From Octopus sinensis (lineage: Eukaryota): DNA of 64,000 bases. Position numbers and translations under genes: made by a program. The notes below the pieces were generated by a model. That model saw nothing but the letters and a program-made list of their open reading frames with translations. It searched no databases and was not told the DNA's origin. Where the stretch lies: positions 93,682,001 through 93,746,000 of the forward strand of contig NC_042998.1 in NCBI RefSeq assembly GCF_006345805.1, in the 5' to 3' direction. Shown here one piece after another: positions 2,735 to 49,598 of the stretch (positions are counted from its first letter, which is position 1; each line of letters begins with the position of its first letter).

Positions 2735-3995
2735 TTACTCGCATTCGTATTTAAATAGCGCTCTGTGTGGCACAGATTCTTCAGCTTGTCCGGATTGGGG
2801 AGACATGTTGTACCAGAAAACTGCTTCCAGCGGCGAAATGTGCCCTCTTTCCGCTATGGCATTGAATGCCCGATGGTGCCTCTCTACGATTCCGCTACCA
2901 CTCGACCTATACGCTGCTTTGAACAAGCGATGCACTTTCCACCGAACGAAACGTCGCTCCGTTGTCCATTTGCAGTTCTTCCACGGGATCCTTCTCTAAA
3001 AATATCCCGTTCAAAATCTGCGCAATCTCGTCAGCAATGCCCGTTCTCAACTCCCTCCAAATGGCCAGCTGGCCCGGCTCGCAGTCGACCATGGAGAGAT
3101 ACATTCCCTGACGGTAGTGCGTCACATCCACAGCTAGTCTCTTCCAGTTGTGCTCCACCGAAAGGTTTCCTTGCTCATGCCCATACAGAGTAGGGTCAAT
3201 GGACTGACACCTGTCGCAGCTCCCGATTACTTTCCGGATGCTTCTCCTAGTGACGTCAGCATCAATGATCTTCGCGAGATACAGGGTCCTGTTCACACCC
3301 AAATGATGCATAGCGTGCAGTCTCTTCAGTTCGGAGTCATCCAACCGACACGCCACAGCTATCCCTTTCTTTACCTCCTCCAGTTCCGCCACCAACGCCC
3401 TTTTCACCCTGGTCAGTGCATCTGCCCTGTTTCTCTCCGAAGGCACGAAAACTACGTTCAGCTTCAGTCCAAACTCGGCAATCAATTCTCCTAGAACTCC
3501 TAGACGGCAGTTCACCAACATCTCCGCGGTACCTTTCGTCCGAAATCTCCTCTCACCGGTAATCACCGATCCTACCCAGTCAAGCACTGCGGCCGAATCC
3601 GTCAGGATTTCGATTGAGCGCAGACTCCATTTCAGGGCCAAGTTAACCCCCTTCAGCACCGTGTCTGATTCGGCAACATTGATGTGGTTAAATTCGTCTG
3701 CTTTCCGAAGCCAAACCGCGTCCTTCTCCTCAGCGCCTTCGATCTCCAATACAACCCCTATCGCTATACTGCTAGCATCACACCAGGCGATCCCGCATTC
3801 CGTCTTGGGCACATACCAGTTCCCCCTGACCGGGTCTTCCGCTCTCGTCCTCTCTAGGATTTCCTGCATCATCGTCACCGTCCCTTCTCCCATCTTGTCG
3901 CCCCAACTCTCCCCCTCCGCTCGTCTCTTGGTGTAACTGCACGCTGTACGCAGCCATCCAGCGATCGGATAGTGACCGACCAACTTCCCACACAC
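2735..3995 (-). pseudogene. RNase H + integrase of the LTR element (frameshifted)
   Basis: RNase H motifs WCDASS, HINVAE, TDS and NRADALTR. HHCC (HAMHHLG...CDRC). DDE core AVDVTH, MDNGATF and GIVERHHR, the last in a shifted frame. Confidence 0.85.
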
Positions 3996-4101
3996 CGAGA
4001 ACAGCTCTCTCCTGCTGACGCTGAAACTCAGCTCTGGGATTCAGAGATGGCACTCCACCCACTACCTCCTCCTCCCACGGAACAAGGCCTCCTTCCTCGA
4101 T

Positions 4102-4641
4102 CTACCTCTCTACCTTGTCTTCGAACTCGACCCTGGCGTGACCTTTCAGGGTACGCTGGTAGCAGCTCACCCTGTTCTTCAACATCGGGGGCTCGTCTTT
4201 ACATCGCCACTCTATCGTCCACCACTGACCATCGAACGCCGCCTGAAAATCCTTGTCCTCAATGGTGTATGCGGCGCAGTCCCTCGCGGGGCTCTGCTTT
4301 CTCCAGCGATCCTGACTCACAGCGCACCACGCCCCCACGCTTCCGAACGTGACCTCATCACCTACAATACTGACATCACCGAGGCGGTTGATGGTGTCCA
4401 TCCCCATCACTACATCAACCCCGTCTATCACGCGTTCAACCACAATTACCTGCAGCCTTAGCGTCGCGCCTCGCACCACTATCTCTACATTGCTGCTGCC
4501 TTTGCATCGGATTTCGCTGCCGTCGACCGCCCGGACGCTACTTGTCCCCTTCCATTTCTTCGCCACCTTGAAGTCACGAGGGTGGTCGTGCAACCCGTAT
4601 CCACGAGGGTCTACGTCGTCAGGGAACCCACTTACGAACAC
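4102..4641 (-). pseudogene. Aspartic protease / pre-RT fragment of the LTR element
   Basis: VRAVDGSEIRCKG...VDVVMGMDTI resembles the C-terminal half of a retropepsin. No catalytic DTG motif is present. Confidence 0.6.
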
Positions 4642-4713
4642 TAGTCGCGCTGCTCTGTCCAGGCCTTCTCCCGTAAACCCAGCCAGCGTGGCCAGCCTAC
4701 GTACCTCCGTCGC

Positions 4714-9905: not shown

Positions 9906-12068
9906 TTTTCTATTACCCAAGCTTCTTTATCTGCTCTCTCCTTTTCATGGGACTGATGCAGACTTTTCTCAATTTCCATTAGCATTCTCTCGAGCCGAGA
10001 CTTCTCACCACTTTTGGTGTGCTTGCTCAGGCGATTCGCAATCCTTGTCCGTCGTCTCATAAGAATCTTCCTTTCTCTAGGGATCCTGTTTTTGTTTTTG
10101 TGTGTGCTGGCCCTGCACACTGGGACATATTTGTCACATATGGCTTGTATTATGGACATGAAGTGTTTGTGTTTCATGTTTATGTCCGGTGTGGAGAGAC
10201 ATTTAGGCCAATTCCTGTTTGAGGATCTCTTTCTCAATCAACTACCAGTTTGCTTTATGAAAGTTTAGGTTGGAGAGATGGTGGATGCTTCGTATAGGCT
10301 GTGTGTCTACGGGGACTTTTGTTCCATACATAGACAGCTCTATTATGTTGTGATCCGAGATCATTGTCGGCATCACATTAACATTATGGATAATATCCAT
10401 ATTGTTTGTGAAGCAGAGATCCAGTATATTATCTGCCCTTGTTGGTTGCAGAACTATTTGCTCCATGAAAGAGGCATTTGTGAGATGGAGCAGGGACTCT
10501 GCCTGTGCCTGCTGATGGTGTGTCATCCCTGGGGGCATCTGCCCCCCAGGCCATTCCACATTGGGGAGGTTAAAGTCACCCATGAAGAATACACGGTTGT
10601 GTTGTTCAAGGTTGGTGAGGACTTCTCCTATTTTTGTTAGGCAGTCTTCAAACATGCCTGAGTGATTTGGGGCATCTGGTGGGCGATATGTAGTGCATAT
10701 GACGATATTCAGTTGTCTTATGTGTACAATATGAGTTTCACACACTGAGTTTGAATATGACAACAGGACCTGGGGCGTGAGGTCATATCGGATGTACATT
10801 GCAACTCCACCATGGCTCCTCCCTTTTCTATCTGTGCGTATGACTGCATATTGCGGCATGTGTATTTCTGCATCACCTATATCGGGTTCAAGATGCGTTT
10901 CTGTGAGTGCCATGCATATAGCTTGATTGCATGTCACAAGGTCTCTCAGGAATGAGATTTTCCTTTTACAGTTTCCGCGCAGCAGCCCTCCTACGTACAG
11001 TAGAAATATTTTTGTGGTGTGTGTGTTGGTGTTGGTGTCTGTGGTGGCCATCCTGCATCTGTCGGTGGTGGCCTTATGTGGTGGCTCCTCCCTTTTCTAT
11101 CTGTGCGTATGACTGCATATTGCGGCATGTGTATTTCTGCATCACCTATATCGGGTTCAAGATGCGTTTCTGTGAGTGCCATGCATATAGCTTGATTGCA
11201 TGTCACAAGGTCTCTCAGGAATGAGATTTTCCTTTTACAGTTTCCGCGCAGCAGCCCTCCTACGTACAGTAGAAATATTTTTGTGATGTGTGTGTTGGTG
11301 TTGGTGTCTGTGGTGGCCATCCTGCATCTGTCGGTGGTGGCCTTATGTGGTGGTAGTTCCAGCTTTGTGCTTGTAGCCAGGTCAGCTGCTGAACAATTTT
11401 TTGTGCCATGCACAAAAAAGATTGCTGTTCAGCTGCTGCCCTTCTCACATCTGGGTGAAGCTGGCCATTTGTTGGGTTACCGCGCACCACATCCGCATAT
11501 CGTCTTTCAGGAGTGGTCAGTGCGCTTTTTTTCCTTCTTTTATATTTTTCTTTTTCTTTTTCTTTTTGCTCTCCCCAAGGGAGGGACCCCTGTCTCGCGT
11601 CCGTGCGGTTTTGGTAGGGCCTCTGATGTGCAAAGCGACAGTTCGCACCTTCGACGCCGTAACAGCAGTCCCCCCTTCAGGTAGAATTTGCAGATGTTTC
11701 TTTCTTTGCCCTTATAGTTCTTGCTGGGGTCCTTTTGTTTTCTCTGGACAGGGTTTCTTTTAGCTTTGATTTTCTTGCCTTTTACCTCCTGTTTCCCATC
11801 AATTTTAGGGTGCTTTTCTTTTCTTGCAGTCAACGCACCTCTTTGGTCTTCAGTTGTGGTGTTGGGAGCTGGACATGTGTCATTGTTTCCTTGTGTTCTA
11901 GGTTTCTCGGTTTTGTTTTTTGTTGGGTCCTGGATGTTTTCTTCATCCTTTTGGCTTTCCCTGGTGCCGTCACCTCCTAGGATGATGTCCAGAGTGTCTA
12001 CATGTTGCCTGATTAGAGCGTATGAACGGATAAATTCTCGTTTCTTTCGCTCTATCTGGGCGGTGGTT
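9906..12068 (-). mobile_element. CR1/L2-group LINE fragment: end of ORF1 plus APE endonuclease, no RT
   Basis: ORF1 with a CCCH-like CKFYLKG motif. APE motifs ALTETHL, RTDRKGRSHGGVAMY, YRPP, MGDFNLP, PTRADNILDL and SDHN. Both ends abut (TA)-rich tracts. Confidence 0.88.
10242..11051 (-). pseudogene. LINE ORF2 apurinic-like endonuclease domain
   Basis: 269-aa ORF containing the canonical APE motifs. It continues in 9906-10237 after a stop. Confidence 0.88.
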
Positions 12069-37662: not shown

Positions 37663-38223
37663 ATAATATATAATATATATATTATATATATATATATATA
37701 TATTTCAATAGGTGAATGAATTATCCTATGTTTATCAACAGCATGGAAAATTCGTTGAACCGATACCAGGGTAGCAAATTCGCGTTGAAGCGTTGAAGCG
37801 AACTGTCCAAGGGTAGAAACTCCGGGTTCATTTGCAGAAATTTGTGTGTTATATATGAATAAATGAAAGAATGGAGTCGAACGAAGATGTTAACAAAATT
37901 CCTTTACTCTCGACATATGTTTCGAAGACCACATGGTTTCATTCCACAGGAATAAAGAGTGTATGATGCAATCTTCTCATCAGGAAAGAAAGGGAGCCTC
38001 TCTCGGCAACAAGACAAACATTTCGATGACTGTCTACATGGTAAACAAAACGACAATAAGTGATTTTTTAAAAAACCGTTAAAAGATTTGACGTCAAAGT
38101 TAGATAGTAGGAAGAGAAGGGTTAAAGGAATGATTAAGAATGTTCAAAGGCTTAGGAAAGAATTTCACTATTGAAGTGGAGTGTATGTTAGGCTAATTGT
38201 TCAAAGCACGATGCCTATCGTAA

Positions 38224-40150
38224 TCATTTGTAAGAGTAAAAAGTATGTTTCTGCCAGTGCTTACATTTATAGGATTTCTCTATGAGTGTGTTTACAAGGG
38301 GAACCTTAAAGAAGAGGATATGGAAGAGCTCAGAGTTGCAAATATTACAAAATCTCCTGCCCTTATCAAAAGGGAAGGATATAGACAGTATGAACCAATC
38401 TAACTTGAAATCTAAATTAATGTCTTTAAGACGCCAAACTAATTTACTTAGCCCTGTACTATGTCGTTTTTTACTATTCCTGAATGTTGAATAATGGTTT
38501 GAAATTCTCTTGGATAACTGGGAAGAGGACGCTCCTATATAGAAGAAGACATTGGTACCAGAGGAGATTCTACACTGGTAAATAGAATTCTCGATCTTAG
38601 AATTACTAGACAAAAATTTAATTCTGTTGGGGTTGTCCTCCGAGATCGAAACGAAGTTTTTATTGCTATGATTGTTGTTACTATTATTATTAGCGTTAGC
38701 AACTACACTATTCGTATTATTATTAGTATTATTAATGGTAATACAATCAGTAATTTCTCCGTTATTGTTATCACTATCAACATTACCATTGTTATTAACA
38801 CGACTGATACTATTATTAATATTATCATTGTTAACACTATCGCTACTACCATTGCTATTACTATTAATACTATTCCTATTAGTATGACTGTATGATGGGT
38901 TGGAAATAGTAAGATTTATGTTGGAACTCCCAGGTGAAGAATCTCTATTTATCAGCTTGGTATTGTGAGAAGATATAATTTGTGAAAGATTTCTAGTGTT
39001 AGAGAAAGCGATTTTGACTATGTGGGAATTGATAATAGAATAATATCTAGAATTTCTGGGAAAGTTCCTAGCGACGGCTTCACGGAACTGTAAGGGAAGG
39101 TTCGATTTAATTTGTTTACCGAAAGGTATTACGAACCAGATATGGCTCTTAGTGGCCTTTGACTTGTACGTAGAGTTATTTGTGAAAGTAAGGGGAAAAT
39201 TACTGGGTTGAAAATTTGGAGTTGAACGGCGCTTACCTCCCCTGGTCCGTAAAGAATTTATATTTTGCATAGTGTTGCTGGCACTACTAGAATTAGAACT
39301 ATTATTCCTATTACAAGTAACTATTCTATCTGGAGAAGCAGATGTTGGTTTAGAATGAGCTGAATCTATGTATGACACTTTGTCCTTATAGCCGGCTTTT
39401 GCCAAGGCGGCGTTATAAAAGCCTGCCTTTTGGTTAAAGATGTCAACATTGGCAGATAATTTAGAAAGTCTCAAAGATATGTTTTTGACTAAATTATCGG
39501 TAACGGGCTTGGCATGATTACTGTAAAGGCTAATATACTTAAGATTTGTGGAGGGTTTATGGTAAAGGAAGTATGAGTTATTTTGTAAATTGAGGGTAAT
39601 GTCTAAGAAGTTGGCTTTAGTTAACTCATCGTCAAAAACGATGTGCAAGCCCATTCTACCAAAAAACCTAACTAACCTATTTTTAACCTTCTGTATTTTT
39701 TGGTTCGAGACATTTTGGAGGTAAAGCAGACAATCGTCGCGATAAAGACCTCCACAGATGTCCGGGAATTGGTCGGCCATTTCATAAAGAATATAAATTC
39801 CGACCAAATCGGCTATCTGGGCGCTGTCTGTACTTCCCATTAGTACATCGAACGCATTAGGGGTATCTCTGCGGACCCACAACTTGCTATCGAACTGGAT
39901 GAAGGATTTCCTAGCAGTCAATATCACATTAATTTCTTCCCTGGAGAGGCCTGCCTTATTGTGTGCGTGCCATAGGGCCTTATTAAGTATAATAGGGTTG
40001 ATTGAAGAATAGAAACTAGATATATCGAATTGGATAAATTTAGTGCTGGCCTTATCAGTAATAGAAGTGAACCAATCTACGACTTGAACAGAATTGGACC
40101 ATAAGCTAAGTTTTAATTTATTAATTAATATAGGGATATACTTATCTAAT
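38224..40150 (-). CDS. Penelope RT + GIY-YIG endonuclease (N-terminally truncated, frame open)
   Basis: QFDISSFYSSI, DVLMGS, GLYRDDC, NFLDITL, YHKP...SNH, and SIYQC...FYIG...RISNH. The frame stays open upstream of the track ORF start at 39927. Confidence 0.88.
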
Positions 40151-40209
40151 ATTTTTGTTTACCATGTAGACAGTCATCGAAATTTTTGTCTTGTTGCCGA
40201 GAGAGGCTT

Positions 40210-40302
40210 CCTTTCTTTCCTGATGAGAAGATTGCATTATACACCCTTTATTCCTTTGGAATGAAACCATGTGGTCTTCGAAACATATGTCGAGAGTAAA
40301 GG
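40210..40302 (+). ncRNA. Type I hammerhead ribozyme motif in the inverted pLTR (sister copy on the minus strand at ~37900-37993)
   Basis: cctttctttc-CTGATGA-gaaga...tcttc-GAAA-catatg-TC-gagagtaaagg. All three stems can form. Confidence 0.75.
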
Positions 40303-40355
40303 AATTTTGTTAACATCTTCGTTCGACTCCATTCTTTCATTTATTCATATATATA

Positions 40356-42127: not shown

Positions 42128-42524
42128 CGTTTCTTCTAAAGGCACAAGGCCTGAAATTTGGAGGGCAGGACTAGTCGATTATATCGGCTCCAGTACGTAA
42201 CTGGCACTATTTCATCGACCCCGAAAGAACGAAAGGCGAAGTCGACCTCGGCAGAATTTGAACTCAGAACGTAAAGACGGACGAAATACCTATTTCTTTA
42301 TTACCCACAAGGAGCTAAACACAGAGAGGACAAACAAGGACAGACAAACGGATTAAGTCGATTATATCGGCTCCAGTGCGTAACTGGTACTTAATTTATC
42401 GACCCCGAAAGGATGTAAGACAAAGTCGTCCTCGGCGGAATTTGAACTCAGAACGTAACGGCAGACGAAATACCACTAAGCATTTTGCCCGGCGTGCTAA
42501 CAATTCTGTCACTTCACCGCCTTA
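42128..42524 (-). mobile_element. Dimeric SINE family A
   Basis: Head-core-tailA joined to core-tailB, with the same junction as at 34 kb. Confidence 0.85.
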
Positions 42525-43923: not shown

Positions 43924-44185
43924 TGTGTGTTATTTTATGTTAAGCTCAGGAGCGGTGCCCGCGAGGAAGGTTTACTAAATAGATACATTTCCTATTGCAA
44001 AGCCGAAACATATGTATTAAATGATTTCGAAATCAAAACTTCATTTTATTGCTACTAAATTCACTAACAAGACCTGCAGCAGGAATGAACTCGAAACCAC
44101 GTGGTTGTGAAGCAAATTGTTTTATCCATGCTTGCGTCTCGTATGGAAAAATATGTGTATGGCTGTGTGGTAAGTAGCTTCTTAC

Positions 44186-46175
44186 TGCGCATGTGCGAGT
44201 CAGTGTTGTGTTTGGCACTGAAGCGGTGAAGATGTGCTTTTGAAGCCGTCTTGAATTGAAAACTTTGGAAGCCCCATGTAAGGTAAGATTCTGTTTTCTG
44301 GGTCCAGTGGGAGTTTTTGTTGAGAATTGTTTTTTACATGCAGGAAGTCCTACTGGATTCAGAATTCTGATTCTGTCGACATGTGGCAAATATATTTTTC
44401 TCGCTGAGAAAATTTTTTGGGGCGTATCCGTCTTCGAATTGTGAGAATTGTATTGTGCTGTGAAGAACTACCAATTTTACACCAATTTTTGTGGAAGTTG
44501 TGCGATCCTGGTTCGATTTAGGCCGGGAGTACCAAATGGCCAAAAGGATTTTGCTGTGTTATTGACTTTCTTTTTAACTTTATTTGACTTTCTTTTAAAC
44601 TTTATTTGACTCTCTCCTTTTTTCATTGTGACTTTCTTCGGATTTCCTTTTCTTCTCGTTTTTTAGTTTTATTCTAAATACATTTATTTAAAAAAAAAAA
44701 ACATGGCAACAAAAGAAACCACCGCTTTGGAATGGGAGGTCATCCCACCCAAGCAGTGGATTGAAAGTCTTGAGAAGAGGACGGTGGTCCTACGAACCTA
44801 TTCTAGGTCGCGTGGAGCCATTGCCCTCTTCGACAGGAATACTATAGAGAAAGAGTTGGGGGACCACCTGCCAACTATAAAATTTATTTCTCGGGGGACT
44901 AAATTTGCAACGGTGTGGTTGCTGTTTGGTACCCCCGAGGAAGCTAGCAGATTTGCTAGCGAGCCACTGGAGGGAGAGGAAATTTTGTTCCTCCCCTCGT
45001 ATTGTGGCAGAAAAGTAAAAAGAGCCTGGGTGTGTGGGCTGCCCCCGGGCACGGAGGCGGAATGGATCGAGAAGACCATCCGGCGAGGCCTGGGGGATAG
45101 CGGACCCAGACTACTGAGTGTGAAAATGGCTCCCGCGGTCGCCTGGGAGGGGTCAAAGGCAACTTTGACCCTGTGGACACCGGTGGCCGTGGGAGAAATG
45201 AAATTCCCGGACTTCCTGAGAATGGCTGGACACAGGTACCCGGTGATACTCGAGGGTCGCCCCCCCCCCAAGTGTCACCTGTGCCTGAAGCCCGGACATA
45301 TCAGGAAGAATTGTCCCGGGGGCCGTGGTGGTGCCCCGGAGCAGAAAGGGGAAAAGGCGCCCGCCGCCCCCTCATTGGAGGGGGAGACGGTGGAAGTCGT
45401 GGAGGAGGTTGCCTCCACGAAAAGAAAGAGACAGGCGAGCAACAATGGTTGCCCGCCAAAGAACGCTCAGGGGGCGGAGGGGGATAGCAATCCCCCGTGT
45501 CTGGTGACGGAGTCCCCTGGGTCAGCAGTCTCCCCCAAAAGAAGGAGGAGAAAAAGGAGAGGTCGGACGACTGACGTTTCTGTGTCGCCGACGGAGCCGC
45601 GGGTGGGATGTGTGCCACCCGCGGACAAGGCTCCGCCAGTAGGAAGTGTGCCACTGACGGAGCAGTGTGAGGTCCCTTCCTGTGAAGAGGAGATGCTTCT
45701 CCTCCTTTACCACAAGGGAGAGGAGGTGGAAAGATTTTTGAATGGCTTGGGTGACCGAGAACGTAAGGGCACGGTCGGCTCAAGGAGTCCGTTATGGCCT
45801 CCGCGGGTAGCTGCGGAAAAAGTAACGGAAGATACTTTGTCAAGGGTCGCAGAGACCTTTGAAAGGAAAGATTTTACTTTTCTCTTTGCAGGCCCCGACT
45901 TGTCGTCGCAGAGTTGTCTGCAGGCGGCAAGACAATTTGCTTCGGGGAGCTGACGAGGAGAATTGTTGAACATTTTTTATGTAATTTGAATCATTGTGAA
46001 CATTTTATTAAATGTATTTATTGAAACATTGTTTTAGAGAAGCGAAAGTCGGCGGGCGCTTTCGACTTCTCCCATCACCATCTTCATCCACCACCACCAT
46101 CATCCATTAATGTCCTTGTCCAGCCCGTAGCTACTACTCTGTGTGCTGCCCTAGTGGCAAATTATATAAAATAAA
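44186..46175 (+). mobile_element. ORF1-only Tx1/L1-like retroelement, unit 1
   Basis: ~520-bp 5' UTR, a single ORF and a ~220-bp 3' UTR ending in AATAAA. Flanked by aagtagcttcttac and aagtagcttccatac. Confidence 0.8.
44703..45953 (+). CDS. Intact 416-aa gag/ORF1-like protein (RRM-like N-terminal half plus CCHC zinc knuckle)
   Basis: Good Kozak context (aaacATGg). CHLCLKPGHIRKNC knuckle preceded by YPVILEGRPP, an arrangement typical of Tx1/ZCCHC3-like ORF1. Basic KRRRRKRR patch. Confidence 0.82.
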   Translation: MATKETTALEWEVIPPKQWIESLEKRTVVLRTYSRSRGAIALFDRNTIEKELGDHLPTIKFISRGTKFATVWLLFGTPEEASRFASEPLEGEEILFLPSYCGRKVKRAWVCGLPPGTEAEWIEKTIRRGLGDSGPRLLSVKMAPAVAWEGSKATLTLWTPVAVGEMKFPDFLRMAGHRYPVILEGRPPPKCHLCLKPGHIRKNCPGGRGGAPEQKGEKAPAAPSLEGETVEVVEEVASTKRKRQASNNGCPPKNAQGAEGDSNPPCLVTESPGSAVSPKRRRRKRRGRTTDVSVSPTEPRVGCVPPADKAPPVGSVPLTEQCEVPSCEEEMLLLLYHKGEEVERFLNGLGDRERKGTVGSRSPLWPPRVAAEKVTEDTLSRVAETFERKDFTFLFAGPDLSSQSCLQAARQFASGS

Positions 46176-46807
46176 GTAGCTTCCATACGCACATGCGCAG
46201 TTAGTCGACTTCTTCCAGCTTTACCAGAGTGGACATGAGCTTGTTAGCTCCATCTAATTACAAGAAAAAAGAACAAAAACAGAGGAGTTCGTCGCGGTAG
46301 GTAGTTTTGTTTTATCTGAGCTGGGCGTAATTTCTTATATTGTAATTTTTTGTTAATAAATTTTGCCCAGCTTTGGGACAATTTCGCCTGCTCTCGACGA
46401 CTGCTGTTTTTGTATATTGTGGATTTATTGTGGAAAAAAAAAGGGGGACGTATCCTCGCTCGAATGATTAGAACCTATACAGTTGCTGATGAAGTTACCG
46501 TTGGCTGTAGCCAGTATTGTGTTTGGATTTATTGGATTTATTTTACCAATTACCAGAAAAAAAGTTTCATACCAAGGACCCTATCCACATTTGGCCGGGA
46601 GTACTAGTTGGCCAGGAAATAGGATTTTTGCTGAATGAATTGTTTTTCTTTTTTCCGTCTCGTTTTCCTGATTCTTTCTTTCTTTTTGAACTGTTTATTT
46701 ACTTTTTGGACTTTGTTTTAATTTTTGACTGTTTCTGTTAACTTTTTGTGTACCTTTTTTTGGACTTTTTTCTTTGAACTTAGAACTTTCAAGATTTCTT
46801 TTTGCAC

Positions 46808-48067
46808 ATGGCAAAAATAAACGGTGCCGCTGTTTTGGAGTGGGAAGTTGTCCCTCCCAAACAGTGTATTAAAGATCTTGAGAAGAGGACGGTGGTGCTA
46901 CGGACCTATTCTAAGTCGCATGGTGCCATCGCCCTATTCGACAAGATTGTGATAGAGAAAGAGTTGGCAGACTAGCTGCCAACTATAAAATTTATTTCAT
47001 GGGGGACCAAATTTGCAACGGTCTGGTTGCTGTTTGGTACCCTCGAGGAAGCTGGCAGATTTGCCAGCGAGCCTCTTGAGGGGCAAGAAATTTTGTTCCT
47101 CCCCACTTATTGTGGGAGGAGGGTGATAAAAGCCTGGGTATGTGGGCTACCCTCGAGCACAGAAGCAGGATGGATTGGTGATACCATCCGGCAGGGCCTG
47201 GGGGAGAAGGAGACCAGGCTTTTAAATGTGAGAATGATGCCAGCGGTCGACTGGGAGGGGTCAAAAGCAATTTTGACCGTATGGACCCCATCGGCCGCAG
47301 GCGAAATGGTACTCCCGGACTTCCTAAAAATGGCTGGCTGAAGGTATCCGGTGATACTTGACGGTCTCTCCCCACAAGTGTCACTCGTGCCTGGAGCCAG
47401 GTCACATTAGGAAGAACTGCCCCCGGGGCCGTAACATCGCCCAGGCACAGGAAAGTAAGGTGCCCACCCCACCCCCTGTGGCAGAGGAGACGGCGGAAGT
47501 CATGAAGGAAGTTGCCTCCACGAAGAGAAAAAGAAAGGTGAGCAACAATGGTTGCTCACCAAAAAATGGGCAGCGGCACAGGAGGCGGGGGAATAGCGCC
47601 CCCCGTGCCTGCCGACGTATGTCCCTGCTCCCGTAGCCTCCAAAAGAAAGAGGAAAAAGAGGAGCAGAGGACAATCGGCGGATGTCCCTGTGTCGCCGAC
47701 TGAACTACCGGTGGTATGTGTGCCACCAGCAGAAAAGGCTCCGTCAGTGGGAAATGTGCCACTGACGGAGCAGTTTGAGGCTCCTTCCCGTCAGGAGGAT
47801 GAGGAGGAATTTGTCCTCCTTTATCACGAGGGAGGGCGTGTGGGAGAAGTTTTGGACGGCCTGGGCGACCGAGACCGTAGGTACTTGGATTGCATAGGCA
47901 GTCCAATATGACCTCCGCAGGTGTCTGCGGTGGTAATAGAACATAAAATTCTATCAAGGGTCATAGCGACCTTTGACAAGAAAGAGTTTGCTTTCCTCTT
48001 CACGGGACCCGACTTGTCGGCGCAGAGTTGTCTGCAGGTGGCAAGTCAACTTGCTTGGGGGTTCTGA
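46808..48067 (+). pseudogene. Pseudogenised paralogue of the 416-aa ORF1
   Basis: Colinear with 44703-45953. Stops at 46973 and 47339, plus frameshifts. CHSCLEPGHIRKNC is retained. Confidence 0.88.
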
Positions 48068-48182
48068 TGAGGAGGATTGACCTTATTTGTATTGATATTT
48101 CTGAATTTTTGCATTAAAAAAATTGTATTCGAGGGCTTGTTGGTCGGTGGGCGCCGACATCCCTCTCATCTTTATCATTATA

Positions 48183-48577
48183 CTAGCAGTATCGCCCGGC
48201 GTTGTTCGGGTTTGTTTCGACACTTTAGAATTGAAATTGTTTAAAAGTAAAAATTTTGCATTATGTAGCTTGTTATCTCCTTTAAGTGAACATTTTTCTG
48301 GTTGAAATACACCTAAAAATGGCGACACAGCAGTCAAAAAATAGTAAAAGATAGGAGTTTTCATAGAAAAAAAAGCACCTTTTTGATGTTAATAATTTTT
48401 GGTGTTAACATGGTCCGATTTGAATTTTTTCTTCTACGGAAGGCAGAGCAAACCTTCTTCTATCATATTCTCAATTTTGGTCAACTTGCGCCGCAGGGCC
48501 TCTGAGGAGATAGTGTTACTTGAAGGCTACCAAACCTCCCATACACAGACAACTTCAGCTTTATATATATAGTGAGA
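48183..48577 (-). mobile_element. Non-autonomous Helitron
   Basis: Minus strand reads A|TCtcactatatatataaag ... ccgaacaacgccgggcgatactgCTAG|T. Confidence 0.85.
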
Positions 48578-48694
48578 TTTTCATTTCATCTCATTTTGTC
48601 TACATCCAGCCCACAAGCTTCTTACTCTGTGTAATGCCCTTGTGGCAAATTATATGAAATAAAGTAACTTGCTTACCAAGTAGCTTGCTACCTC

Positions 48695-48945
48695 ATTGCG
48701 CATGTGCGAATTAGAGTTGTGTTTGACACCGAAGATGTAAGACATGCTTTTGAAGCCGTCTTAAATTGAAAACATTTGAAACTCAGCTGTAAGGTAAGAC
48801 TTTTTTCTGTCTAGTGGGGACCTGTTCTCTGTCGCAATTATTTTTACAAACAAGAAGTCCTCATCGGATTCTAGTCTGCCTGAGGCTGAGGGAAAAAAAT
48901 TTTCTCACTTGATTGTGAAAATTGTTGAAAAGAAACACAATTTCA
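48695..48945 (+). mobile_element. ORF1-only-family element, unit 3 (5' UTR only)
   Basis: tgcgcatgtgcga...tgcttttgaagccgtctt...tgtaaggtaaga matches 44186-44300. Confidence 0.75.
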
Positions 48946-49307
48946 TTGTCGTCCGTGGGCTGGCTCGTAAATTCACGAGCCACTTCTGGGGAGTCAAACA
49001 GCAACCACACGGTTGCGTATTTGACCCCCGAGTGATAAACTTAATCGCTGGCTTAAGTTAAGGAAAAAGAAGGAAGAGGAAAAAAAGGAAGGAGAGAAAA
49101 AAATTAACAGTTCAGTAAAGAGTATTTTTTAAATAAAAGAAAGATGAAGAGAGAGCAACAGTTCAAAACACAGCAAAGGCCACTCGGTACTCCAGGCCAA
49201 AATTTTAACGCAATTGTAAAACAGTTAAAAAAGCATTCCAATTTTCTTCTCATAGGTACTCCTTGACAGAAACAATATTGTTGAAACACTATTTTCAAAC
49301 AAAATTT

Positions 49308-49598
49308 TGCGGGCCGACCAAAGCTTTGTGTGTGGATTTGCTAGACGGAAACTGAAAAAAGCCCGTCGTATATATGTATGTGTGTGTATATGTTTGTGTG
49401 TCTGTGTTTGTCACCCCAACATCGCTTGGCAACCGATGGTGGTGTGTTTACGTCCCCATAACTTAGCAGTTCGGCAAAACAGACCGATAGAATAAGTACT
49501 ACGCTCCCAAAGAATAAATTCTGAGGTCGATTTGCTCGACTAAAGGCGGTGCTTCACCATGGCTGCAGTCAAATGTCTGAAACAAGTAAATGGGTAAA
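49308..49598 (+). mobile_element. SINE family B body (probable 3' part of the SINE whose head is at 44161-44185)
   Basis: gggccgaccaaagctttgtg...cagtcaaatgtctgaaacaagtaaa. Confidence 0.8.

What the first reader, a model, noticed from the sequence alone, without database searches (positions are those of the whole stretch)
44186..48945. Age gradient along the stack matches sequential upstream insertion
Seen: unit 1 (leftmost) has an intact ORF. Unit 2 has stops, frameshifts and a Helitron insertion. Unit 3 survives only as a 5' UTR. Units 1 and 3 share a 5' UTR type while unit 2 has another, which argues against simple tandem duplication. Inference: each insertion leaves the upstream target intact, so new copies are added at the leading end and the array records time order.
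Basis: partly seen in the sequence, partly recalled or inferred. Interest (0 to 1): 0.7.

Follow-up and report, generated by a model that had tools for sequence, protein, structure and literature searches.

The report
Half-LINE stacks record order loosely
Three jumping-gene copies sit head-to-tail at one landing site inside a common short repeat, and the front copy is far younger than the two behind it, but other stacks in this genome show no general front-to-back age order, so stacks likely grow at any joint and only the longest one examined reads as a rough time record.

Summary
Partly supported. The stack is real: three ORF1-only (half-LINE) units head-to-tail inside a tRNA-like SINE head, joined by copies of a ~16-bp target. 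A 5.4-kb endonuclease+RT partner has the same site and tail. Unit 1 is young (0.8% from its nearest relative, intact ORF). Unit 2 is old (8.7%; 4 stops, 2 frameshifts, a precise 396-bp Helitron-like insert). Unit 3 is not detectably older than unit 2 (8.1% over 640 nt, p=0.73), and is not only a 5' UTR: an inversion plus deletion cut it. So the gradient has one step, not two. Across 196 loci, polarity is no rule. The upstream unit is younger in 25 of 47 adjacent pairs outside one long array, and the first unit is younger than the last in 18 of 38 arrays. Neighbours tend to be of like age, and some young units sit mid-array or last. One array of at least 15 units does age from front to back (rho 0.81, or 0.56 by a second measure), and 8 of 9 read joints in one run carry the same variant. 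Polymorphism was inconclusive. The scan noted this SINE-targeting system before on other DNA. Stacking through duplicated targets is known.

The parts
44161..44171 (+). 5' part of the tRNA-like SINE head (left half of the target element)
   Evidence: Same head directly before the first unit in 169 of 196 loci; 41,674 exact empty head+target+body sites in the genome
44172..44185 (+). Joint J0: target copy in front of unit 1 (9 nt of target plus a short element-borne tag)
   Evidence: the same 9-nt-plus-tag form recurs at 5' joints of solo copies
44186..46173 (+). Unit 1: young ORF1-only element (5' UTR type A, ORF, 3' tail)
   Evidence: Nearest relative 0.8%, terminal branch 0.2-0.3%
44703..45953 (+). 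Intact ORF1, 416 aa, CCHC zinc knuckle at aa 190-205; no RT or endonuclease
   Evidence: zf-CCHC E 0.034, below cut-off; 28% identical over 195 aa to the autonomous partner's ORF1, E 4e-19
46174..46188 (+). Joint J1: target copy between units 1 and 2
46189..48661 (+). Unit 2: old ORF1-only element (5' UTR type B), ORF remnant 46808-48069
   Evidence: 4 stops, 2 frameshifts; nearest relative 8.7%, terminal branch 4.7-4.9%
48182..48577 (-). 396-bp non-coding Helitron-like insertion in the 3' UTR of unit 2
   Evidence: Precise against empty sister copies L091, L099; copies at 89-91% in L065 and L143
48662..48677 (+). Joint J2: target copy between units 2 and 3
48678..48927 (+). Unit 3, forward part: 12-nt target-like 5' tag and first ~240 nt of 5' UTR type A
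   Evidence: The same tag follows the SINE head in family copies L111 and L130; alignments
48930..49312 (-). Unit 3, inverted part: ~130 nt of ORF1 and the rest of the 5' UTR
   Evidence: Reverse-strand matches to copies of unit 3's family
49310..49500 (+). SINE body resumes, without roughly its first 70 nt (right half of the target element)
   Evidence: (match begins at position 70 of the body)

Best explanation
This is a head-to-tail stack of three ORF1-only non-LTR retroelements at one 16-bp site in a SINE head, likely built by separate insertions that borrow the endonuclease and reverse transcriptase of a full-length partner, with unit 1 likely added last at the front and units 2 and 3 of indistinguishable age. 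Shown: the shared site, the target copies at every joint, the partner with the same site and tail, and the ages. Inferred: target-primed reverse transcription duplicates 9 or 15-16 nt of target, so each insertion leaves a usable copy at both ends. The front joint keeps the SINE head upstream of the cut and is probably favoured to some degree, but rear and internal joints are reused too. Short stacks form mostly among units active in the same period and carry no reliable order. A stack that keeps growing for a long time shows a loose front-young gradient. In this window the rear joint and the start of the SINE body were lost in unit 3's rearrangement, which may have left the front joint as the best target (untested).
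For: Site: SINE head before the first unit in 169 of 196 loci, SINE body after a tail in 134 of 196. Duplication: 5' and 3' joints of 97 solo copies agree for 9 nt in 37 and for 15-17 nt in 25. Partner: ORF1 + Exo_endo_phos (E 1.9e-12) + RVT_1 (E 6.1e-28), same tail and target. Ages here: 0.8%, 8.7%, 8.1%. No polarity in short stacks: upstream younger in 33 of 58 dated pairs, 25 of 47 without the long array (this window's pair included), 20 of 36 among well-sampled pairs, 24 of 47 with CpG masked. Significant pairs outside this window and the long array split 5 up, 5 down. Neighbours are alike in age (rho 0.34-0.47; permutation p=0.019). Long array: rho 0.81 on 13 dated units, 0.75 on 10 well-sampled ones, 0.56 by nearest-neighbour distance; a one-base joint variant at 8 of the 9 joints read in one run across three clusters, absent from the first three joints and the last ones.
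Against: The largest age gaps mostly run front-young. At p<0.001 there are 6 such pairs (this window included) against 1, and that 1 is a mid-array insertion counted both ways, so the front bias may be stronger than the sign test shows. Terminal-branch ages are inflated when a family is thinly sampled (L062u1 fell from 16.2% to 1.4%), and the rear units of the long array are among the less sampled. The loci were chosen by similarity to selected units, not at random. Young copies of unit 1's subfamily have a unit behind them in 12 of 16 cases against 1 of 26 in a sister subfamily (p=2e-6). Random reuse of joints does not explain that.
Confidence: 0.68

Rival explanations
1. Strict leading-end growth: only the front joint is reused, so every array is a time record, and the apparent exceptions are dating noise.
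For: Unit 1 much younger than unit 2. Long-array gradient and run of a shared joint variant. Monotonic triplets L062, L066, L140. Several early counter-examples vanished with better sampling.
Against: 25 against 22 pairs and 18 of 38 arrays. Rear unit significantly younger in L035, L039, L241, L251; middle unit younger than both neighbours in L243 and at position 12 of the long array. Units 2 and 3 of equal age here.
Confidence: 0.15
2. Co-insertion: young stacks form in one event, by the RT jumping from one RNA to the next or by read-through transcripts. Neighbours are then of the same age and position means nothing.
For: Neighbour ages are correlated. Most of the 12 young unit-1-type copies with a unit behind them have a young one there, 3 of them a full-length partner. 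The same pair of subfamilies recurs at L050 and L066. End-to-end jumping is reported for R2 RT (title only, in the reference list of PMC4494074).
Against: Cannot explain this window (0.2% against 4.7%) or L240 (0.1 against 2.8). Trees of front and rear partners are not congruent by eye. At L167/L271 the local SINE's own target variant stands at all three joints, so the inner joint was copied from local DNA.
Confidence: 0.14
3. Tandem duplication or unequal exchange of one resident element.
For: It occurs at some loci: L041 internal repeat at 0.7%, L034 units 2 and 3 at 2.1%.
Against: Here units 1 and 2 differ by 21.4%, and each has relatives elsewhere at 0.8% and 8.7%. Most adjacent pairs are 14-31% apart or unalignable.
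Confidence: 0.03

Closest known systems
Tx1-clade elements that target other repeats, and tandem SINEU-3 (Kojima 2015, PMC4494074; passages and sections 3 and 15 read)
   Same: Endonuclease+RT element with a fixed site inside an abundant transposon; non-autonomous passengers use the same site; tandem copies sandwich a target duplication and are ascribed to sequential insertion.
   Different: Here the target is a tRNA-like SINE head, the passengers are 2-kb ORF1-coding elements of many subfamilies, and stacks reach 15 or more units. The passages read do not test order within tandems. Tx1 placement of the partner's RT was not tested by a tree.
TE tandems by double insertion, including R1 arrays (McGurk and Barbash, bioRxiv 10.1101/158386; passages read)
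   Same: An insertion that duplicates its target preserves it and makes a new one; dimers form during bursts. This matches the like ages of neighbours and the use of more than one joint.
   Different: Those are dimers or expanded arrays of one family; these mix diverged subfamilies and the autonomous partner.
HAL1, half-L1 (described in PMC5753468, passages read; the original paper PMC2923044 is not held)
   Same: Non-autonomous element that encodes ORF1 only, related to the ORF1 of a full-length partner.
   Different: HAL1 is described from mammals. These elements are site-specific, end at the target without a poly(A) run, and stack.
HeT-A/TART/TAHRE telomeric arrays (PMC6581046; passages read)
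   Same: Head-to-tail arrays that mix an ORF1-only element with RT-bearing partners.
   Different: Those are jockey-clade elements added only at the chromosome end, hence strictly polar. These are internal, joined by target duplications, and at most loosely polar.

Membership tests
ORF1-only non-autonomous LINE (HAL1-like) | Encodes ORF1 only, no endonuclease or RT | tested here: met
   One 416-aa ORF, about 220 nt from its stop to the tail
ORF1-only non-autonomous LINE (HAL1-like) | ORF1 and 3' end related to an autonomous partner | tested here: met
   ORF1 28% over 195 aa, E 4e-19; shared terminal tail motif
HAL1 proper (mammalian L1 derivative) | Derived from mammalian L1 | tested here: not met
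   The partner's endonuclease is only distantly like human L1 ORF2p (E 2e-14), and unit 1's ORF has no Pfam hit above cut-off. It works like HAL1 but is not filed as HAL1.
Tx1 clade (partner element) | ORF2 with apurinic-like endonuclease and RT | tested here: met
   best solved relatives are L1 ORF2p
Tx1 clade (partner element) | Target preference with target-site duplication | tested here: met
Tx1 clade (partner element) | RT groups with Tx1 in a tree | not tested
   No reference RT set at hand; the homolog search returned nothing. The name Tx1 is recalled and taken from earlier scan notes.
Tandems by repeated insertion | A target copy at each joint; units of independent origin | tested here: met
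Strictly polar array (HeT-A/TART-like time record) | Age rises from the leading end in every array | tested here: not met
   25 of 47 pairs, 18 of 38 arrays; met loosely in one long array
Non-autonomous Helitron | 5' TC, 3' hairpin and CTAG, insertion between A and T without duplication (features recalled) | tested here: met
   against empty sister copies
tRNA-derived SINE (target) | tRNA-related head with A and B boxes | tested here: inconclusive
   Box-like motifs seen by eye on both sides of the site; ARAGORN found no tRNA in 4 of 4 loci; no Rfam search run

The most novel reading that the evidence does not exclude
Long stacks are a fossil ledger of subfamily succession. Growth is biased to the leading joint, one-base variants of the target are copied forward from joint to joint as a mark of order that needs no clock, and some half-LINE subfamilies seek out occupied sites (12 of 16 against 1 of 26), steered by their 3' tail or their inherited 5' tag.
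Probability: 0.3. Interest if true: 0.62.

Novelty: new variant of a known kind. Interest (0 to 1): 0.36.

Why it matters
The general idea that these stacks are time-ordered tapes does not hold for short arrays, so they cannot be used unchecked to order subfamilies. If front-biased growth holds in long arrays, they would give an internal chronology of a retroelement radiation and show which side of the cut the endonuclease reads. The strong subfamily difference in landing on occupied sites is unexplained and testable. I did not find this SINE-targeting half-LINE system, or a test of order in such stacks, in six literature searches (listings only, most subscription journals and Repbase not covered, no supplements read).

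Tried and rejected
Polymorphism of unit 1: inconclusive. No contig spans the stretch, and raw reads gave almost no cover. Joints from 44180 to 46190 carry other letters between and have short sides, so they most likely come from other loci. Short single-depth contigs of 'organism B' match unit 2 at about 97%, a weak hint that unit 2 is shared; not used as evidence. Counts of stops and frameshifts as a clock: rejected, since young copies show up to 9 frameshifts (L051u1, 1.8% from its nearest relative), probably assembly indels. Raw nearest-neighbour distance without targeted sampling: rejected as biased. Shared loss of one base at J0 and J1 as proof of order: rejected, because that form recurs at 5' joints of solo copies. 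The extra target-like 12 nt at J2 as a lost fourth unit: rejected, it is part of the 5' end of unit 3's family. A looser joint motif gave false joints inside ORFs and was dropped. A rule that arrays with a broken rear joint are polar: suggestive (this window, L140, long array), not significant (16 against 8, p=0.15). Homolog search for the partner's ORF2: no hit at E 1e-20. The upstream neighbours of the 40 young partner copies were not examined. Rows left out before dating: of 284 units, 249 were dated; 10 fragments of internal duplications, pieces under 430 nt and clusters under 4 members were dropped; two non-adjacent pairs were excluded.
Full report
Observation. The region holds three related units on the + strand. 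Unit 1 has an intact 416-aa ORF at 44703-45953 whose only hint of a domain is a CCHC knuckle below Pfam's cut-off. Unit 2's ORF is 76% identical in DNA and carries 4 stops and 2 frameshifts. A 396-bp insert at 48182-48577 has Helitron-type ends on the minus strand and is absent from two sister copies. Units 1 and 3 share a 5' UTR type. Unit 3 is more than a UTR: 48930-49312 is the rest of its UTR and about 130 nt of its ORF, inverted, and the SINE body resumes at 49310 without its first ~70 nt. Its short length is one rearrangement and says nothing about its age.

What it is. A search of the own genome returned 150 scored relatives of the ORF. I fetched and merged 196 loci with 284 units. A SINE head stands directly before the first unit in 169 of them, and the SINE body follows a tail in 134. 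Every joint read holds a copy of the same ~16-bp site. In 97 solo copies the two joints agree for 9 nt (37 copies) or 15-17 nt (25 copies), and the rest of the 5' joint is often a short tag typical of the subfamily. A 5.4-kb element with ORF1, endonuclease and RT sits at the same site, ends in the same tail, and has an ORF1 related to unit 1's; 40 copies at 94-98% were listed. The genome has 41,674 exact empty sites and 1,383 exact tail joints (the motif finds 172 of 232 tails in my loci). That the animal is an octopus is my recall from its repeats and the wording of earlier notes; no call shows it.

Ages in this stack. Unit 1 is 0.8% from its nearest relative, unit 2 8.7%, unit 3 8.1% over 640 nt. 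Terminal branches are 0.2-0.3% and 4.7-4.9% for units 1 and 2, about 3 against 59 substitutions. Units 2 and 3 do not differ (p=0.73; UTR-only branches 4.5% and 5.9%). The gradient has one step. Tandem duplication is excluded.

Polarity in other arrays. I dated 249 of 284 units by terminal branch length within 10 clusters. Thin sampling inflates ages, so I searched for relatives of five poorly sampled neighbours; one fell from 16.2% to 1.4%. Of 58 adjacent dated pairs the upstream unit was younger in 33 (p=0.36); without the long array, 25 of 47 (p=0.77; includes this window's pair); well-sampled only, 20 of 36; CpG masked, 24 of 47. The first unit was younger than the last in 18 of 38 arrays. 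Significant pairs outside this window and the long array split 5 and 5; two cases show a young unit between older ones. Against my reading: the largest gaps run mostly front-young (6 against 1 at p<0.001). Neighbours are closer in age than random pairs (p=0.019).

The long array. On contig C7 (about 10.43-10.46 Mb, minus strand) at least 15 ORF1-bearing units follow one SINE head. Their ages run 0.6, 1.6, 2.1, 1.6, 2.0, 2.2, 2.6, 7.6, 3.8, 1.9, 4.6, 5.8, 11.3% (rho 0.81, p=0.0008; 0.75 on 10 well-sampled units), rho 0.56 by nearest-neighbour distance. A one-base variant of the target stands at 8 of the 9 joints read in one run, across three clusters, as expected if each new unit copies the joint in front. 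The variant also occurs at 5' joints of some solo copies, so this support is partial.

Mechanism. From established knowledge of non-LTR elements: the partner's endonuclease nicks the site, the RNA tail is copied in place, and the second cut duplicates the target (inferred, not assayed). Both copies keep the core. The front copy keeps the SINE head upstream and is often rebuilt by the tag; the rear copy keeps the SINE body; inner joints keep the core alone. The data fit reuse of all three with a modest front bias, mostly within periods of activity. One thing is unexplained: young copies of unit 1's subfamily have a unit behind them in 12 of 16 cases (this window included) against 1 of 26 for a sister subfamily with another tail, while only 2 adjacent pairs appear among the 95 exact tails listed on contig C1. 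Co-insertion could contribute, but partner trees are not congruent by eye, and one array carries the local target variant at its inner joint.

Comparison with what is known. Tx1-clade elements that target other repeats, and tandem passengers that sandwich a duplication, are described (PMC4494074, passages and two sections). That a duplicated target lets dimers form in bursts is described (10.1101/158386, passages). ORF1-only elements are known as HAL1 (PMC5753468, passages) and HeT-A (PMC6581046, passages). A recent octopus repeat annotation lists L1-Tx1 families, and its main text has no hit for 'nested', 'ORF1' or 'non-autonomous' (PMC13282606, passages; supplements not read). Earlier notes of this scan describe the same SINE-targeting system on other DNA; I saw none that tests age order.

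Verdict. A real stack in a real and unusual system. The specific claim of an ordered record is partly supported: true for unit 1 and loosely for one long array, not for units 2 and 3 or for short arrays.

Noticed in passing
G000:C7 about 10,431,500-10,463,400 (L037, L235, L071, L236; minus strand): Array of at least 15 ORF1-bearing units behind one SINE head, with partner-like ORF2 pieces further on; loose front-young gradient and a run of joints with one shared variant.
   Followed up: yes
Loci L031-L080: Subfamilies with nearly the same ORF1 N-terminus but different tails differ sharply in stacking: 12 of 16 against 1 of 26 have a unit behind them. Tail type tracks position (one tail abuts the SINE body in 31 of 32 cases).
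   Followed up: partly
Loci L031-L266: 5' UTR types, ORF halves and 3' tails are shuffled among subfamilies like modules, and 5' ends carry stacked short tags that resemble earlier target copies.
   Followed up: partly
Loci L091-L108, L192-L208 against L031-L068: Older element families more often sit in a SINE variant whose target differs at two bases from that of young ones, a hint that target and elements changed together.
   Followed up: no
window 42270-42400 (minus strand): A second SINE type matches the 3' end of the full-length partner over about 80 nt, as earlier scan notes suggested.
   Followed up: partly
L243 (G000:C19:26,905,500-26,915,499): A full-length partner, younger than both neighbours, sits in the middle of a three-unit stack: insertion at an inner joint.
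   Followed up: partly
window 38224-40158 (minus), inverted arms 37850-38050 and 40153-40353: 644-aa open frame without a Pfam hit above cut-off, Penelope-like by eye (recalled), between 201-nt inverted arms that are 98% complementary.
   Followed up: no
window 2907-4713 (minus): LTR-retrotransposon-like remnant (DUF7047; weak RNase H-like and integrase zinc-binding hits).
   Followed up: no
window 10242-11096 (minus): Endonuclease frame of another LINE inside a 269-bp tandem duplication (10813-11353).
   Followed up: no
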